Virus record (IMG/VR): IMGVR_UViG_3300043399_000633
Location: 1-64,000 of that record
Direction: 5' to 3' (one strand)
Source: a virus
DNA length: 64,000 nt
A program made the translations under genes and the position numbers. Shown here one piece after another: positions 10,584 to 58,175 of this stretch. Each line of letters starts with the position of its first letter. Within the stretch, counting starts at the first letter, position 1. The notes under the pieces are model-generated. The model saw only the letters and a program-made list of their open reading frames with translations. It was not told the DNA's origin and made no database searches.

Positions 10584-11339
10584 ATGAAATACAGTATCAT
10601 TATTCCTACCTACAACAATTGCGAAAAATTTTTAAAACCCTGTATTGAAGCGTTATTGAGATATTCACACCTTGATGACATTGAATTAGTATTAAGCGCC
10701 AACGGTTGTATCGATAATACACGCGATTTTTTGGATAAATTGCGTGAAAGTTTTGATTATTTAGGTAAAAATGAACACCTAAAGATAGTTTGGCATGATG
10801 AAGCATTGGGATACGCTAGAGCTACAAACGCAGGTATACGTATAGCATCTTGTGATAAATTGGTAATGCTTAACAATGATGCCATATTGTTACCACAGCA
10901 TCGCGGCGATTGGCTAAAATTACTACATAGAGGTTTTGATGAAAATCCTAACTGTGGCATTACTTGTTCATTGAAAAAGTATTCCCCCATTACTAAAATG
11001 AACTTTGGTGTTTTCTTCTGTGTTATGATAGATAGAAAAGTAATAGATAAAGTGGGATTATTGGATGAACGATATGAAAAAGGCGGCAATGAAGATATAG
11101 ATTTTTGTGCTGCTGCACAACTATTAGGTTACGAAATTGTTCAACCCGTACCATTAGTTTGGAGTGAAGAAGCACAAATACATGTGGGAACGTTTCCTCT
11201 TTGGCATCAAGGTGAAGGAACAGTACACAATCCTGAATTAGTTAGTGATTGGGAAAAAACATTTCGTAGAAATGAATTAAAACTAGCACTCAAATATAAT
11301 AATATGGAATGGTACGAAAAATATAAGCACACAGCATAA
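10584..11339 (+). CDS. GT2 family glycosyltransferase
   Basis: SIIIPTYN start, LNND (DxD-like) motif, ED motif in GGNEDID. Confidence 0.88.
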   Translation: MKYSIIIPTYNNCEKFLKPCIEALLRYSHLDDIELVLSANGCIDNTRDFLDKLRESFDYLGKNEHLKIVWHDEALGYARATNAGIRIASCDKLVMLNNDAILLPQHRGDWLKLLHRGFDENPNCGITCSLKKYSPITKMNFGVFFCVMIDRKVIDKVGLLDERYEKGGNEDIDFCAAAQLLGYEIVQPVPLVWSEEAQIHVGTFPLWHQGEGTVHNPELVSDWEKTFRRNELKLALKYNNMEWYEKYKHTA

Positions 11340-28646: not shown

Positions 28647-29823
28647 TAAATGTCTTTGTTGTCAAAGTGATAATCTCACGACCGTATTAGACTTGCAAAC
28701 ACAACCTTTAGCTAATTCATATCTTGGTGATAGCTATGAAAAAGAATTTAACTATCCATTGGCATTAAACTACTGCAACAATTGCGGTCATTTGCAATTA
28801 ACACATGCAGTAAATCCTGACCTTCTTTTTAAAAATTACCTATATGTAAGTGGTACTACGCAAACATTGCGTGACTATTTCAATAAGTTTGTCAAAACAA
28901 TAAGTATGTATCTACCTAAGTCTGAACCATATCATGTATTAGATATAGCATGTAATGACGGTTCACAATTGGATGCATTTAAAAAATACGGCCACTATAC
29001 ATATGGCATAGATCCTGCAGAAAATCTATATCACTTGAGTAGTAAAAATCATACAGTAGTATGTGATTACTTTAATCAACAGTCGATAGAAAAAATAGGT
29101 GTACCAAACTTTGATGTCATCATAGCTCAAAACGTTTTTGCACATAACTCTTATCCTGAAGAATTTTTAAATGTTTGCAGGTCTAAACTCAGTATTAATG
29201 GTAGGTTATTTGTACAAACTAGTCAAGCAGATATGGTAAAGTACGGTCAATTCGATACGATATACCATGAACATATTTCATTCTTTAATGTACATTCAAT
29301 GTATCATTTAGCAAAGCGTACAGGAATGTATTTAGAGGATGTATTTAAAACAGACATTCATGGTACTAGTTATGTCTTTGTGCTAACGTCTGATTGCAAA
29401 TATGACAATTCTGATTTATTGTTAAAGAATGAACCTAAACAAACATTCCAAGACGTACAACTTTTTGCTGAAAAGGCAATATTAACTGTTAATAGTCTAA
29501 AAGAAGAATTGAAAAACTACGAAGATTGTTATATTGTAGGGTATGGCGCCGCAGCAAAAGGAAACACATTACTTAATTTTGGTAACATCAATTTGGATTA
29601 CATCGTAGATGATAATCCATTAAAACACGGTATGTATACTCCTGGTAGAAAAATAAAAATCGTGTCTTTAGATACTATGCTTGAATTAGCCGGTAATCGT
29701 GAGATAGTATGGGTTCCATTGTCATGGAACTTCTTTGATGAAATACTAAACCGTGTGAAAAACAAATACGATAAGCCTACAACTTTTATCAAGTATTTTC
29801 CTAAATTAGAAATTATAAAATGA
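28615..29823 (+). CDS. NDP-hexose C-methyltransferase family protein
   Basis: N-terminal Zn site (CLCC...CNNC), QPLANSY, DIACNDG, YHEH, GYGAAAKG. Confidence 0.88.
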   Translation: MIDTLNITCLDKCLCCQSDNLTTVLDLQTQPLANSYLGDSYEKEFNYPLALNYCNNCGHLQLTHAVNPDLLFKNYLYVSGTTQTLRDYFNKFVKTISMYLPKSEPYHVLDIACNDGSQLDAFKKYGHYTYGIDPAENLYHLSSKNHTVVCDYFNQQSIEKIGVPNFDVIIAQNVFAHNSYPEEFLNVCRSKLSINGRLFVQTSQADMVKYGQFDTIYHEHISFFNVHSMYHLAKRTGMYLEDVFKTDIHGTSYVFVLTSDCKYDNSDLLLKNEPKQTFQDVQLFAEKAILTVNSLKEELKNYEDCYIVGYGAAAKGNTLLNFGNINLDYIVDDNPLKHGMYTPGRKIKIVSLDTMLELAGNREIVWVPLSWNFFDEILNRVKNKYDKPTTFIKYFPKLEIIK

Positions 29824-30569
29824 AAACTGTCATCACGCATTTTTATAACGAAGAACACTTATTACCCTGGTGGCTTGAATACCATAAGAAAATTTTTGAT
29901 TTTGGTGTATTGATAAACTATCAAAGCACAGACCGTTCTGTAGAATTATGTAAAGAAATATGTCCACATTGGCAGGTTGTTTCTTCGATGCACACATATT
30001 TTGATGCTGAAAATTGTGACAACGAAGTAACCTTTTATGAAAATCAATTATCAGGTTGGAGAATCGCATTAACTACAACAGAGTTCTTAGTGGGCAATGT
30101 TAATAAATTGTGCAACAACAACCCTGCACATCAACAACATATTATACCGGGCATAAGATTTACTAAATGGGATCCATTAGGTTCACTTGATAGAAATAAA
30201 CAATTATGGGAACAAGTTACTACTGGGATATCGTATTATGATAATTACATTGCACATCAAGGTAGAAGCTTGCATAATTACACTGGATTGAAGTATCCCA
30301 CTGGTCGTCACTTTGGACCATACACCACAGAAGAAGCTTTAATATTTCATTACGCACATGCAATTGTTGGTAAAGAAATGATACAACGGAGACTACAGTT
30401 TCAATATAAAATTAGTGACAGGGATAAAGAACGTGGTATAGGAAATCATCATTATGTAAATAAAAATGGACTCACGTTTAATGGACTCTATGAAATGCAT
30501 ACACATTTTATATCACAAGGTCAAACTGATTGTTCCGTTTTTATTGAAAAAATGTTCGGGAAACAATAA
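29820..30569 (+). CDS. Glycosyltransferase family 2-like protein
   Basis: HFYNEEHLLPWWLEYH, STDRSVE. Confidence 0.7.
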   Translation: MKTVITHFYNEEHLLPWWLEYHKKIFDFGVLINYQSTDRSVELCKEICPHWQVVSSMHTYFDAENCDNEVTFYENQLSGWRIALTTTEFLVGNVNKLCNNNPAHQQHIIPGIRFTKWDPLGSLDRNKQLWEQVTTGISYYDNYIAHQGRSLHNYTGLKYPTGRHFGPYTTEEALIFHYAHAIVGKEMIQRRLQFQYKISDRDKERGIGNHHYVNKNGLTFNGLYEMHTHFISQGQTDCSVFIEKMFGKQ

Positions 30570-30579
30570 AATGCATCAT

Positions 30580-30654
30580 GCGCTTGTAGTTTAGTGGCAG
30601 AATCAGGGTCTCTAAAGCCCACAGGCATGGGTTCGAATCCCATCGAGCGCACCA
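30580..30654 (+). tRNA. Amber suppressor tRNA, anticodon CTA
   Basis: Acceptor GCGCTTG/CGAGCGC + ACCA; D-loop AGTGG; anticodon loop CT-CTA-AA (30610-30616) on a GGGT/GCCC stem; T arm ATGGG-TTCGAAT-CCCAT. Confidence 0.88.
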
Positions 30655-30682
30655 ATCATAAATACATTTTTAGGAGAAAATA

Positions 30683-31246
30683 ATGTCGTAGATTGAATAT
30701 GCTTGTAAAGATATAGTCTTCCACTTCAACAAGAAGCATTTAGAAGACGAGACCATTCCCATGTGGGTTTTAAAATTTCATGGTGAAACGTATTATGTGA
30801 ATCATGTGGAATGCAATATTCCCTGGTCTACCAAAGAGACACCCGATAATTCACATACTAAAGGCAGTATCAAAGTCAAAGACTGTTTATTACAGATTGA
30901 CGAGAACAACGAAGCCAAAATACTACCCATTACTATCATAGATAAAGCACGAATCCATAATGCCAAGAAAGGTATTACACGTATAGTTATTAGCGAGAAG
31001 AACTTTGGTGGAAATAAACTACGCAATATTTTACAAGAGCGCAATATTAAACATGGACCAATCAAAAGCATAGGTGGAGCCTGCACAACAACTTTTTACG
31101 TAACTGATATATACAACCAATCTGATGTCGTATATCTTGCATTGATGCTGAGTGATACAGATTTTAGAAAACTCATGCCCAATGAAGGATACTATAAAAT
31201 GTATGATGATCCTAAATACAGTGCTGATATCGATTTGGATATATGA
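30683..31246 (+). CDS. Hypothetical protein with in-frame TAG at codon 3 (probable read-through; the ORF track starts at 30761)
   Basis: AGGAG RBS at 30672-30676, then ATG TCG TAG ATT GAA TAT... continuing in frame into the 30761 ORF, whose ATG has no clear RBS. Confidence 0.7.
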
Positions 31247-31314
31247 TGACGATTAAATGCAGATAAAATCCTTAAAATAATCATATAAATAAATTTTTAA
31301 GGAGATTAGCCACA

Positions 31315-31608
31315 ATGAAAAAAATAATAGTGGCGTTCCTATCCTGCTTATATGGCACTATAGCTAACGCACAAACAGATTTTGTAACAATACCTAAACA
31401 GGTTACATGTGGGCCGTTACAACATATTATCTCGGCACTAATGTCTTCTGATATCAATGAAAAACCTGTTTTAGTAGGCAAAGACGATAATGAAAAAAGT
31501 GACTATGCAATTTTTCTTAATGCGGAAACTAAGACATTCACCATTGTTCAAATAATTAAAGCAACAGGTTGTATATTAGGATCTGGGAAAATCATTCCAA
31601 CAATGTAA
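31315..31608 (+). CDS. Small secreted hypothetical protein
   Basis: MKK-hydrophobic-ANA signal peptide; TATAAATA at 31284-31291 and AGGAG upstream. Confidence 0.65.
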   Translation: MKKIIVAFLSCLYGTIANAQTDFVTIPKQVTCGPLQHIISALMSSDINEKPVLVGKDDNEKSDYAIFLNAETKTFTIVQIIKATGCILGSGKIIPTM

Positions 31609-31611
31609 CAT

Positions 31612-31629
31612 TTGTCATCATTTTGTCAT
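31612..31629 (+). promoter_or_regulatory. Pho box upstream of pstS
   Basis: TTGTCAT-CATT-TTGTCAT, 11-bp periodic direct repeat matching the PhoB consensus CTGTCAT. Confidence 0.75.
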
Positions 31630-31677
31630 ATTAAAATGCAATAATAAGTTTAAATATTCATATACAAAGGAGAAAGT

Positions 31678-32691
31678 ATGAAAAAATTTATTATTGGTTT
31701 ATTTACACTATTTGCGTTAACTTCATTGAATGCAGCAGACATCACCGGCGCCGGTGCAACATTTCCTTATCCAGTTTATGCCAAATGGGCAGAACTGTAT
31801 AAAAAAGAAACAGGCGTAGGTCTTAACTACCAAAGCATTGGGAGTTCCGGTGGAATACGCCAAATCAATGCAAGAACTGTTGTATTTGGTGCAACTGATG
31901 CACCAGTAAAAGGTGAAGACCTAGATAAAAACGGGCAAGTACAATTTCCGGCTATTATTGGTGGAACTGTTCCTATCATCAATTTAGAAGGCTTTAGGCC
32001 AGGTGAATTACGTATTACAGGTCCAGTACTTGCAGAAGTTTTTATGGGAACGATAACTCGTTGGAATGATCCGAAACTGGTTGCACTCAATCCGGGAAAA
32101 AGACTTCCTAATCAAAATATCACTGTGGTTCATCGAGCAGATGGTAGCGGTACTACATTCAACTGGACTGATTATTTAACAGTAGTTAGTCCAGAATGGG
32201 CTCAGCGAGTAGGACGCGGCCCAGCAGTCAAATGGCCTGCAGCAAGTTCAGTGGGTGGTAAAGGTAACGAAGGTGTTGCAGCTATTGTTGAAAGAATTAA
32301 AGGTAGCATAGGATATGTTGAATATGCTTATGTAAAGAAAAATAATCTAGTGTTCATGCAGTTACAGAATAAAAACGGCAGATATGTAAACCCCGACGAT
32401 GTTACCTTTGCTGCTGCAGCAGCAGGTGCAGACTGGTTTAGTGTACCCGGTATGGGACTAAGTATAGTAGATCAACGCGGTGATAACGTATGGCCTATAA
32501 CTACAGCTAGTTTTATCATCATGTACAAGAATCCAGAAAACAAAGTAGCTAGTCAAGAAGTCTTAAAGTTTTTTGATTGGGCATTTAAGAATGGTAAAAA
32601 AGCAGCAGTAGAATTAGATTATGTACCATTACCTGATAGTTTAGTACAACAGATTCGACAGCGTGTTTGGACTCAAATAAATAACAAGTAA
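31678..32691 (+). CDS. pstS: Phosphate ABC transporter substrate-binding protein
   Basis: Signal peptide; GAGATFPYP, YQSIGSSGG, HRADGSGTT, GYVEYAY. Confidence 0.96.
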   Translation: MKKFIIGLFTLFALTSLNAADITGAGATFPYPVYAKWAELYKKETGVGLNYQSIGSSGGIRQINARTVVFGATDAPVKGEDLDKNGQVQFPAIIGGTVPIINLEGFRPGELRITGPVLAEVFMGTITRWNDPKLVALNPGKRLPNQNITVVHRADGSGTTFNWTDYLTVVSPEWAQRVGRGPAVKWPAASSVGGKGNEGVAAIVERIKGSIGYVEYAYVKKNNLVFMQLQNKNGRYVNPDDVTFAAAAAGADWFSVPGMGLSIVDQRGDNVWPITTASFIIMYKNPENKVASQEVLKFFDWAFKNGKKAAVELDYVPLPDSLVQQIRQRVWTQINNK

Positions 32692-32757: not shown

Positions 32758-32867
32758 TTTATTATAGGCGATTTTAAGCTAATATAAATAGCTATGAAGC
32801 AGGGTGCTTCAACCAACACTCTTTAAATGTTAGGTACTTAGAGTGTGTACCGTAAAAGGAGATAAAA

Positions 32868-41286: not shown

Positions 41287-42303
41287 ATGAAATGTATCTG
41301 GATTGAAAATAGAATAAGTATCGAAACTGATGGGTACACAAGACCATGTTGTTTAGAAACCGATAATCTTGCACGTATCGACAAGATAGATAATGGAATT
41401 CTGCATAGCTTCAACCACTCAAAATTATTATCGCTAAGAGAAAATTTAAAAGATGGTTATGGACCACTAACTAAACGTTATTGCCATAGATGTGAAGATT
41501 TAGAAACAAAAGGACAACCTAGTCTAAGAACAATAAGCGGCAATGCAGAAGGTCCGAGAAAACTCAAATATATACAGTTTAAGTTAAGCAATCAATGTCA
41601 GTTGGCTTGTGTTCATTGTGCCAGTGGCCGTAGCAGCACATGGGCAAAACTTAATGGTGAATCGCCCCATGTTAAGAAGGCATTTCAAATTACCGATGCC
41701 TTCATTGATGAACTGAAAATGCTGTTACCTGATATCGAAACATTGAAATTTTCGGGTGGCGAACCTTTTCTTCAACCTGAACATTGGAAACTCTTAGAAG
41801 TATTAAAATCAGAGAATCGTAGTCATTGCAAGTTAGAGTACATAACTAACGGGATTAGTCCAATACGACCTGATCTTTGGGAAGGATGGAAATCAATAGA
41901 TTGTTCTATAAGTGCAGATGGATTTGAGGATACGTATGAATGGTTTAGACGAGGTAGTAGTTGGTCAGAGTTACTAAGTAATATTAAAATCATTGAGCAA
42001 TACAGTAATGTGTCTATAAATTTTGCAGTCACACCCTACACTGTTAGCGACTATTTACAGTCTAAAGAATTTTGGTCTGATAAGTATCACTTTAGTGAAT
42101 TCCCTGTCGTCTATCCGGCATATTGCAGTATGCTCAAATTCCCAACAGAATATATACAACAGTTAGATAGGTATACTGAAATTCCATTCACTAGTGGATG
42201 CAGTCCAACAGGTGATATAAATATTTTTCGAAATTGGGCTAACAAAATTGATACAATGTGGAATACTGTTGGAAAAGCAAAACAATTATTTTGGTGGATG
42301 TAG
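41287..42303 (+). CDS. Radical SAM protein with N-terminal SPASM/twitch-like domain
   Basis: RPCC, CQLACVHC, GGEPF; ends in TAG followed directly by TAA. Confidence 0.88.
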   Translation: MKCIWIENRISIETDGYTRPCCLETDNLARIDKIDNGILHSFNHSKLLSLRENLKDGYGPLTKRYCHRCEDLETKGQPSLRTISGNAEGPRKLKYIQFKLSNQCQLACVHCASGRSSTWAKLNGESPHVKKAFQITDAFIDELKMLLPDIETLKFSGGEPFLQPEHWKLLEVLKSENRSHCKLEYITNGISPIRPDLWEGWKSIDCSISADGFEDTYEWFRRGSSWSELLSNIKIIEQYSNVSINFAVTPYTVSDYLQSKEFWSDKYHFSEFPVVYPAYCSMLKFPTEYIQQLDRYTEIPFTSGCSPTGDINIFRNWANKIDTMWNTVGKAKQLFWWM

Positions 42304-58100: not shown

Positions 58101-58175
58101 AGGGGGTTCGCCAAGTGGTAAGGCATCTGATTTTGATTCAGACATTCGGTGGTTCGATCCCATCACCCTCTGCCA
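58101..58175 (+). tRNA. tRNA-Gln(TTG)
   Basis: Cloverleaf; TCTGA-TT TTG AT-TCAGA; GCCA end. Confidence 0.9.

What the first reader, a model, noticed from the sequence alone, without database searches (positions are those of the whole stretch)
30580..31246. Amber-suppressor tRNA placed directly upstream of a gene with TAG at codon 3
Seen: a complete tRNA with anticodon CTA (30612-30614) lies ~27 kb from the main tRNA cluster. It is followed by CATAAATA (late-promoter-like), an AGGAG RBS and ATG-TCG-TAG-ATT-GAA-TAT..., which continues in frame for 23 codons into the 30761 ORF. The 30761 ATG lacks a good RBS. Inference: a self-contained suppression switch in which the protein is made only when the phage tRNA is expressed and charged. 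This would be a local, gene-specific use of stop read-through rather than genome-wide recoding.
Basis: partly seen in the sequence, partly recalled or inferred. Interest (0 to 1): 0.85.

Follow-up and report, generated by a model that had tools for sequence, protein, structure and literature searches.

The report
Phage gene gated by amber tRNA
A large freshwater phage that otherwise uses the normal genetic code keeps a UAG stop as the third codon of one conserved gene, 29 bases after its own UAG-reading tRNA; 132 distinct related loci keep the same stop, so the protein is very probably made only when that tRNA overrides it.

Summary
A canonical tRNA with anticodon CUA lies at 30580-30654. It is followed by AGGAG, then ATG-TCG-TAG (30683-30691), then 23 in-frame codons that run into the ORF called from 30761.

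In 155 distinct related loci, 132 keep an in-frame TAG 1-9 codons after an ATG, and 80% of those have a tRNA(CUA) within 3 kb. The 23 codons are conserved and form core beta-strand 1 of a confidently predicted fold, so the gene starts at 30683. The 97-kb contig shows no general TAG recoding. Re-initiation after the stop is excluded as a general mechanism, because the next codon can be Asn, Lys, Pro or Val.

Two results qualify simpler readings:
- Database proteins with "Q" at the gate are TAG=Q gene-calling artefacts, so the inserted residue is unknown.
- Members of the family without the TAG still sit beside a tRNA(CUA) (13 of 18), so the protein itself seems tied to the suppressor tRNA.

The protein has no Pfam, PHROG or PDB relative. 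Four literature searches found no description. This scan has already reported the same pairing on at least eight other genomes. Read-through itself has not been shown experimentally.

The parts
30544..30572 (+). sigma-70-like promoter match (TTGAAA-17-TAAAAT) ending 7 nt before the tRNA 5' end
   Evidence: Consensus scan, 10 of 12 matches. This is a consensus match only; the number of such sites in the region is no higher than in shuffles.
30580..30654 (+). amber-suppressor tRNA, anticodon CUA (30612-30614), class I, encoded CCA, G1-C72/C2-G71/G3-C70/C4-G69, A73
   Evidence: ARAGORN. Rfam RF00005 59.2 bits. In an alignment of 23 related tRNA(CUA) genes, 17 of 19 cloverleaf pairs show compensatory changes.
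30657..30664 (+). CATAAATA, a 7-of-8 match to the T4-type late promoter TATAAATA
   Evidence: Read from the sequence. The exact motif occurs at this spot in some relatives (L009, L011). TATAAATA is not enriched in the window. Function not shown.
30672..30676 (+). AGGAG ribosome-binding site, 6 nt before the ATG
   Evidence: Read from the sequence. A purine-rich RBS stands before the leader ATG in the related loci.
30683..30688 (+). two-codon leader ATG-TCG (Met-Ser)
   Evidence: Read from the sequence. Leaders in relatives are variable and 1-9 codons long after the ATG: MA, MS, MK, MTQ, MSQQ, MTDLNPIAI.
30689..30691 (+). in-frame TAG (codon 3), the gate
   Evidence: Present in 132 of 155 distinct loci of the family. 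No variant in four public runs. The following base is A in 128 of 132 loci.
30683..31246 (+). full gene: 187 codons including the TAG, then TGA
   Evidence: Homologues cover 95-100% of the 184 residues that follow the TAG. AlphaFold2 mean pLDDT 92.7.
30692..30931 (+). N-domain (about 80 aa, all-beta, motifs FHFNK, PxW, YYVxH, STKETPDN, TKG); strand 1 is encoded by 30695-30727, upstream of the internal Met
   Evidence: AlphaFold2 on the N-domain alone gives pLDDT 95.0. No solved-structure match: best VIA-align Z 3.5, Foldseek E above 0.6. The domain also occurs alone in about 85-aa phage proteins.
30971..31186 (+). C-domain, ferredoxin-like beta-alpha-beta-beta-alpha-beta fold
   Evidence: VIA-align Z 6-7 to ACT and RRM-type domains over residues 94-165. 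This is only a common arrangement.
30761..30763 (+). internal ATG used by standard gene callers (161-aa ORF)
   Evidence: ORF list. Starting here would remove strand 1 and helix 1 of the N-domain.

Best explanation
This is a suppressor-tRNA-gated gene. Ribosomes start at ATG 30683, behind an AGGAG site, and meet UAG at codon 3. If the phage's tRNA(CUA), encoded 29 nt upstream and charged by a host synthetase, is present, it decodes the UAG, and a 187-residue two-domain protein is made. If it is not, release factor 1 ends translation after a dipeptide. The gate sits in a short variable leader just before the first beta-strand, so any inserted amino acid should be tolerated and an aborted attempt costs almost nothing. 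The rest of the phage uses the standard code and largely avoids TAG as a stop. Because TAG-less relatives of the protein also sit next to a tRNA(CUA), I infer that the protein works with or on the suppressor tRNA or UAG decoding. The TAG would then couple its dose to suppressor activity, in the way the in-frame UGA of prfB couples RF2 synthesis to RF2 activity. Shown here: the anatomy, the conservation, the linkage and the fold. Inferred: charging, read-through, and the protein's role.
For: 1. The tRNA is canonical and under structural selection.
2. The TAG is conserved. Of 155 distinct loci (54-98% protein identity, from IMG/VR, metagenomes, MAGs and the cultured Rhizobium phage RHph_I1_18), 132 have an in-frame TAG 1-9 codons after an ATG.
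3. A tRNA(CUA) lies within the +/-3 kb locus in 105 of those 132. In the full-length family, 21 of 62 upstream distances are 100 nt or less. ARAGORN misses further copies that a regular expression or a covariance model finds.
4. The codons between the TAG and the internal Met are conserved and form beta-strand 1 of a model with pLDDT 92.7 to 95.
5. The codon after the TAG is ATT, ATC or ATA, but also AAT, AAC, AAG, CCC, GTC, GTT or GTA, which are not start codons. In RHph_I1_18 it is AAC.
6. There is no general recoding. The contig is densely coded under table 11. This is the only gene with a long coding stretch (23 codons) between an upstream in-frame TAG and its first start codon. Few real genes end in TAG, and one of them ends TAG-TAA.
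7. The TAG is invariant in contigs of four independent studies.
8. The linkage does not depend on the TAG: 13 of 18 TAG-less loci still have a tRNA(CUA) nearby, and two of them have two copies.
Against: There is no experimental evidence for read-through or for aminoacylation of the tRNA, and the inserted residue is unknown. About 20% of TAG-bearing loci show no tRNA(CUA) within 3 kb; it may lie elsewhere, since most of these contigs are fragments. Three loci have an ATG after the TAG (L049, L090 and one N-domain-only locus) and could bypass the gate. The internal ATG 30761 could in principle give a truncated product. The protein's function is unknown, so the proposed tie to UAG decoding rests on gene linkage alone.
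Confidence: 0.78

Rival explanations
1. The ATG-NNN-TAG unit is a mini-ORF. Ribosomes terminate at the TAG and re-initiate at the adjacent ATT (Ile) codon, and the tRNA(CUA) is unrelated to the gene.
For: The codon after the TAG is ATT, ATC or ATA in 124 of 132 loci, and NCBI table 11 lists these as rare start codons. In L049 it is ATG.
Against: Other loci have AAT, AAC, AAG, CCC, GTC, GTT or GTA after the TAG. The Ile belongs to conserved strand 1, which explains its conservation without a start role. This model does not explain why a rare tRNA(CUA) sits beside the gene in 80% of loci. Leaders of up to 9 codons put the RBS too far from the ATT for direct initiation.
Confidence: 0.05
2. The real product is the 161-aa protein from the internal ATG 30761. 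The upstream frame is a decaying remnant and the TAG is an inactivating mutation.
For: Standard gene callers choose this start here and on long contigs (P0002, P0017, P0027, P0034).
Against: The 23 upstream codons are conserved at protein level across all relatives. They encode a core beta-strand. The TAG itself is fixed in 132 distinct loci and in four independent runs. No strong RBS precedes 30761.
Confidence: 0.04
3. The gate is real, but the tRNA's main job lies elsewhere, for example extending TAG-terminated host or phage proteins, or serving other gated genes such as Pth2-like genes. This gene is then only one client with no special relation to the tRNA.
For: In L218 a weakly PTH2-like ORF with an M-S-TAG start lies just upstream of a TAG-less member of this family. 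The held contig is only 27% of the genome by CheckV, so other clients may exist.
Against: In this contig the tRNA sits 29 nt from this gene and 27 kb from the tRNA island. TAG-less family members keep the tRNA next door, which points to a specific tie. No other gated gene was seen in 97 kb.
Confidence: 0.13

Closest known systems
Stop-codon-recoded phages with phage-encoded suppressor tRNAs (TAG read as Gln, 'code 15': crAss-like, Lak and others; PMC9523058, PMC7886860, PMC10879173)
   Same: A phage-encoded tRNA(CUA) lets ribosomes read in-frame TAG in phage genes while the host uses the standard code. The idea that this times or licenses expression is also shared.
   Different: In those phages tens to hundreds of genes, often whole late blocks, carry many TAGs. 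Here a single TAG in a single gene, always within the first few codons, is conserved, and the rest of the genome uses and terminates with the standard code.
prfB (RF2) autoregulation through an early in-frame UGA (from established knowledge; recoding review PMC5009743)
   Same: An in-frame stop early in a gene makes the gene's output depend on how that stop codon is decoded.
   Different: In prfB the stop is bypassed by a +1 frameshift, and the sensed factor is the gene's own product. Here the frame continues through the stop and a dedicated tRNA is encoded alongside. Whether the product feeds back on decoding is unknown.
Programmed stop-codon read-through in viruses (Q-beta A1 protein, MuLV gag-pol; from established knowledge)
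   Same: A conserved in-frame stop is read through to make the functional protein.
   Different: Those cases use near-cognate host tRNAs, occur at the end of a complete protein to add an extension, run at a few percent, and often need mRNA context or structure. Here the stop is at codon 3, there is a cognate phage tRNA, and no significant local RNA structure (z -0.47).
Synthetic amber-suppressor gene switches (PMC7969014, PMC6412442)
   Same: The logic is the same: a target gene with an early TAG is expressed only when a suppressor tRNA is supplied.
   Different: Those switches are engineered. This one is natural, old and widespread in large environmental phages.

Membership tests
Canonical elongator tRNA (Rfam RF00005) | Cloverleaf with a conserved T-loop and D-loop, scoring above the family's gathering threshold | tested here: met
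   59.2 bits against a gathering score of 29. 17 of 19 pairs covary across 23 relatives.
Amber suppressor tRNA | Anticodon CUA in a 7-nt loop with U33 and a purine at position 37 | tested here: met
   The loop reads C-U-CUA-A-A. Suppression activity itself cannot be tested with these tools.
tRNA-Pyl (ARAGORN's label) | Atypical architecture: 3-nt variable loop, very small D-loop without GG, no canonical T-loop (from established knowledge); a partner PylRS | tested here: not met
   The tRNA has a 5-nt variable loop, a D-loop with GG and a GGTTCGAAT T-loop. ARAGORN assigns the label from the anticodon alone. PylRS was not searched for.
Genome-wide TAG recoding (code 15) | Many genes interrupted by in-frame TAG, with coding density restored only when TAG is read as sense | tested here: not met
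   The genome is densely coded under table 11. Only this gene has a long coding stretch behind an in-frame TAG.
Termination-reinitiation / start-stop mini-ORF | A usable start codon at or next to the stop | tested here: not met
   The next codon is AAT, AAC, AAG, CCC, GTC, GTT or GTA in eight distinct loci; RHph_I1_18 reads AAC.
Structure-stimulated read-through | A stable conserved RNA structure just after the stop | tested here: inconclusive
   Folding of 30655-30770 gives -18.4 kcal/mol, z -0.47 against shuffles. Covariation downstream of the stop was not examined.
Any curated protein family (Pfam, PHROGs) or solved structure | A significant profile or sequence match | tested here: not met
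   No Pfam hit at E 0.1 or better. No PHROG hit. No PDB sequence hit better than E 0.17.
ACT/RRM-type ferredoxin-like fold (C-domain) | A beta-alpha-beta-beta-alpha-beta sandwich with a clear structural match | tested here: inconclusive
   Z 6-7, rmsd 2-3 A over about 65-80 residues, matching many unrelated ACT and RRM domains. This is a common arrangement.

The most novel reading that the evidence does not exclude
The roughly 80-residue N-domain family is a dedicated partner of phage amber-suppressor tRNAs. It may bind or modify the tRNA, or antagonise RF1. The early UAG then forms a feedback loop that sets the level of UAG read-through in infected cells. If so, it would be a natural, portable controller of stop-codon decoding with a new protein fold.
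Probability: 0.3. Interest if true: 0.9.

Novelty: new variant of a known kind. Interest (0 to 1): 0.8.

Why it matters
Many large phages that use the standard code carry 'orphan' suppressor tRNAs with no known target. This finding gives such a tRNA a concrete, conserved client: one gene locked by one early UAG. It is a natural counterpart of the amber-suppressor switches built in synthetic biology, and it is directly testable with a reporter and the cultured Rhizobium phage RHph_I1_18.

It also has practical consequences for annotation. Standard annotation truncates or misses this gene: RHph_I1_18 has no annotation at all at the site. Code-15 gene calling on short contigs writes a false Gln at the gate.

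If the protein acts on the tRNA or on termination, it would be a new regulator of stop-codon decoding with a fold that has no solved relative.

Tried and rejected
- Inserted residue from database proteins: sequences starting MSQIE or MAQIE suggested that the TAG aligns with a conserved Gln. Rejected: five such proteins are letter-for-letter TAG-to-Q translations of loci whose DNA reads TAG.
- Identity of the tRNA by similarity: no close paralogue was found among 125 other phage tRNAs (best scores 17-33 of about 75, mixed isotypes). None of the contig's 41 other tRNAs shares its GCGC acceptor stem with A73. The charged amino acid stays open. Lys or Gln are guesses from E. coli suppressor work recalled from memory.
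- DNA search of the phage collection with 29800-31700: no match.
P0135 as a query found no viral loci.
- The exact pattern GCGC...TCTAA...GCGCACCA found nothing in three records. The covariance model R1 then found the tRNA in L024's record.
- N-domain fold: no convincing match. About ten of the 50 weak rows (Z 2.3-3.3) are ADP-ribosyltransferase toxins, which is noise level and only a lead. BFVD gave only uncharacterised phage proteins and DUF2061. The ESM Atlas gave nothing usable.
- No PTH2, RF-1, GlxRS or class II Lys/Asp synthetase family was found in the held 97 kb, which is 27% of the genome. This says nothing about the rest of the genome.
- TATAAATA as a late promoter: not enriched in the window (13 seen, 10 expected).
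- RNA evidence: one 240-nt contig from an RNA library spans 30597-30836. It comes from a relative, and DNA carry-over cannot be excluded, so transcription is not shown.
- Complex prediction was not used, because no protein-protein binding is claimed.

Full report
**Observation**

ARAGORN finds 12 tRNAs in the window. One, at 30580-30654 (+), has anticodon CTA at 30612-30614. The other eleven begin at 58101. On the whole 96,886-base contig it is the only CTA tRNA among 42.

Rfam's general tRNA model scores it 59.2 bits, E 5e-12. It has a normal D-loop with GG, a 5-nt variable loop, a GGTTCGAAT T-loop and an encoded CCA. ARAGORN's 'Pyl' label therefore reflects the anticodon only.

Downstream the sequence reads as follows:
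- CATAAATA at 30657-30664
- AGGAG at 30672-30676
- ATG at 30683, TCG at 30686, TAG at 30689-30691
- 23 sense codons (30692-30760), in frame with ATG 30761 and the stop at 31244-31246

**Is the upstream frame part of the gene?**

A search with the 184 residues that follow the TAG found 1,508 relatives. Most are 185-200 aa long and cover 95-100% of the query, including the IEYACKDIVFHFNKKH segment.

An AlphaFold2 model built on 61 homologues has a mean pLDDT of 92.7. Residues 2-12, which are encoded upstream of the internal Met, form the first beta-strand of the N-domain. The N-domain modelled alone reaches pLDDT 95.0. A start at 30761 would remove a core strand and a helix. The gene therefore begins at ATG 30683 and contains the TAG.

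**Conservation of the TAG**

I fetched DNA for relatives from IMG/VR, metagenomes and GTDB MAGs, and for the cultured Rhizobium phage RHph_I1_18. After removing duplicates there are 155 distinct loci:

| Class | Distinct loci | With tRNA(CUA) in the +/-3 kb locus |
|---|---|---|
| In-frame TAG, 1-9 codons after an ATG that has an RBS | 132 | 105 (80%) |
| TAG followed by a possible alternative ATG | 3 | 1 |
| No in-frame TAG | 18 | 13 (72%) |
| Cut by the contig end | 2 | 0 |

- In the full-length family, all 97 distinct loci recovered with the window-like queries carry the TAG (118 loci before removing duplicates). It almost always sits exactly nine codons before FHFNK.
- Leaders vary (MA, MS, MK, ML, MTQ, MSM, MSQQ, MTQK, MTDLNPIAI), but the stop is always TAG.
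- In contigs of four public runs from four studies, no variant is reported at 30689-30691, while many nearby third-codon positions vary.
- RHph_I1_18 reads M-S-E-F-M-TAG-N-E-S-C-R-E-V-I-F-H-F-N-K. The stretch is not annotated in GenBank, and the record's 'tRNA-Pyl(cta)' lies 13 nt downstream.

**A caution on the inserted residue**

Sixty of the 120 best database proteins begin M-x(1-4)-Q-I-E, which looks like a conserved Gln at the gate. Five of them are letter-for-letter TAG-to-Q translations of loci whose DNA reads TAG. All proteins of this form that I checked sit on short contigs, whereas proteins on long contigs are called from internal starts. The Q therefore comes from gene calling with code 15 and is not evidence about the inserted residue.

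TAG-less relatives place their initiator Met at this position (M-V-E-L, M-L-E-I, M-I-E-K). The site is therefore the unconstrained N-terminus, and any amino acid should do.

**Linkage to the tRNA**

- In the full-length family, 62 of 97 distinct loci have an ARAGORN tRNA(CUA) upstream on the same strand, 23-2,613 nt away. In 21 of them the distance is 100 nt or less.
- ARAGORN misses several copies with unusual D or T arms. A regular expression or the covariance model R1 finds them in L001, L022, L024, L028, L029/L030, L050, L059, L085, L099, L103 and L124.
- An alignment of 23 of these tRNAs supports the cloverleaf, with compensatory changes at 17 of 19 pairs.
- The tRNAs next to full-length genes nearly all share G1-C72, C2-G71, G3-C70, a fourth Y-G pair, and A73 (L024 reads GCAC).

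**Not genome-wide recoding**

- Under table 11 the window is densely coded.
- Among 139 ORF-based genes of the contig, this is the only one with a long coding stretch (23 codons) between an in-frame TAG and the first start codon. A pattern search for RBS-ATG-(1-9 codons)-TAG followed by a long ORF finds no other convincing case on the contig.
- Real genes rarely end in TAG, and one of them ends TAG-TAA.

**Rivals**

- Re-initiation at the codon after the stop fails as a general mechanism. That codon is ATT, ATC or ATA in 124 loci, but AAT, AAC, AAG, CCC, GTC, GTT or GTA in eight others, and AAC in the cultured phage. The Ile is simply the first residue of strand 1.
- A pseudogene or internal-start reading fails on the conservation and on the fold.
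- No significant RNA structure surrounds the stop (z -0.47), so read-through does not look structure-driven.
- The base after the TAG is A in 128 of 132 loci. From memory of E. coli work this is a favourable context for amber suppression, but Ile and Asn codons would give the same result.

- The N-domain occurs alone as proteins of about 85 aa in many other large phages.
- Most of these also carry an early TAG (MK-TAG-ITEKK, MK-TAG-INKKC, MTTL-TAG-NCKEAV, ML-TAG-VNDC, MLA-TAG-PVNAK). Their tRNA(CUA) lies 229-1,873 nt downstream, or upstream.
- Of the 18 distinct loci with no in-frame TAG, 13 still have a tRNA(CUA) within the locus. L038 and L161 have two each. L189, a full-length member that starts M-V-E-L, has one 115 nt upstream.
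- The tRNAs beside N-domain-only genes have different acceptor stems, so the link is to the CUA anticodon and not to one tRNA lineage.
- In L218 a TAG-less family member follows a weakly PTH2-like ORF that itself starts M-S-TAG.

Together this suggests that the protein belongs to a suppressor-tRNA module and acts with or on the tRNA or on UAG decoding. That step is inference from linkage.

**What the protein is**

It has no Pfam, PHROG or PDB-sequence relative.
- The N-domain is an all-beta domain with no solved-structure match: best Z 3.5, Foldseek E above 0.6. BFVD returns only uncharacterised phage proteins.
- The C-domain has a common ferredoxin-like arrangement, with Z 6-7 to ACT and RRM domains.

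**Context**

- The contig is 27% of the genome by CheckV, so the phage is a jumbo phage of roughly 350 kb.
- Its ribonucleotide reductase is closest (56-60% identity) to those of large Xanthomonas, Ralstonia and Stenotrophomonas myoviruses.
- The runs that hold the stretch are labelled mainly freshwater or lake metagenomes.
- Neighbouring genes are sugar-modification enzymes and PstS.
- A sigma-70-like match ends 7 nt before the tRNA, and no terminator-like site lies between the tRNA and the gene. Co-transcription is therefore possible but not shown.

**Prior knowledge**

Four full-text searches found code-15 phages, synthetic amber switches and jumbo-phage suppressor tRNAs whose targets were only guessed at (for example Atu_ph07, PMC6102473), but no description of this module. 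Atu_ph07's own homologue has a 100-aa N-terminal extension and no TAG, and that phage carries only an opal suppressor.

This scan has already reported the same family and pairing on at least eight other genomes, as well as related Pth2/HD modules. My counts agree with those notes.

**Verdict**

This is a natural, conserved, gene-specific amber gate with its own tRNA, in a phage that uses the standard code. Read-through, the charged amino acid and the protein's role remain to be shown.

Noticed in passing
L028:2193-2997: A NUMOD3 homing-endonuclease-like ORF is inserted between the tRNA(CUA) and the family gene. It begins with a duplicated copy of the gated start (ATG-TCx-TAG-ATT-GAA-TAT-GCT-TGT), so the endonuclease may itself be amber-gated.
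   Followed up: partly
L218:2343-2624: A weakly PTH2-like ORF (Pfam E 0.0014, below the cut-off) with an M-S-TAG start lies about 380 nt upstream of a TAG-less member of the family. A second kind of amber-gated gene therefore sits in the same neighbourhood.
   Followed up: partly
L032:2977-3314 (Rhizobium phage RHph_I1_18, MN988519.1 about 10911-11250): The N-domain gene with its in-frame TAG is not annotated in the GenBank record. It ends 13 nt before the annotated tRNA-Pyl(cta).
   Followed up: yes
window 41287-42303: This gene ends with tandem stops TAG-TAA, and few real genes on the contig end in TAG. This fits a genome that tolerates an amber suppressor.
   Followed up: partly
G000 70856-70932 and 74149-74225 (beyond the window): Two 77-nt tRNAs are called Leu(caa) and Leu(tag) but lack the long variable arm expected of bacterial tRNA-Leu.
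   Followed up: no
window 30544-30572: A sigma-70-like TTGAAA-17-TAAAAT match ends 7 nt before the tRNA 5' end. The tRNA may therefore be made almost leaderless and co-transcribed with the gated gene.
   Followed up: no
window 31284-31291 and 32783-32790: Exact TATAAATA motifs stand about 20-80 nt before the starts of the small secreted ORF (31315) and the zinc-ribbon ORF (32868). They are possible T4-type late promoters, although the motif is not enriched overall.
   Followed up: partly
L042:2864-2957: A 94-nt tRNA-like gene with an unclear anticodon loop (ARAGORN 'tRNA-???') lies directly upstream of a TAG-less N-domain gene. It may be an intron-containing or otherwise odd suppressor.
   Followed up: no
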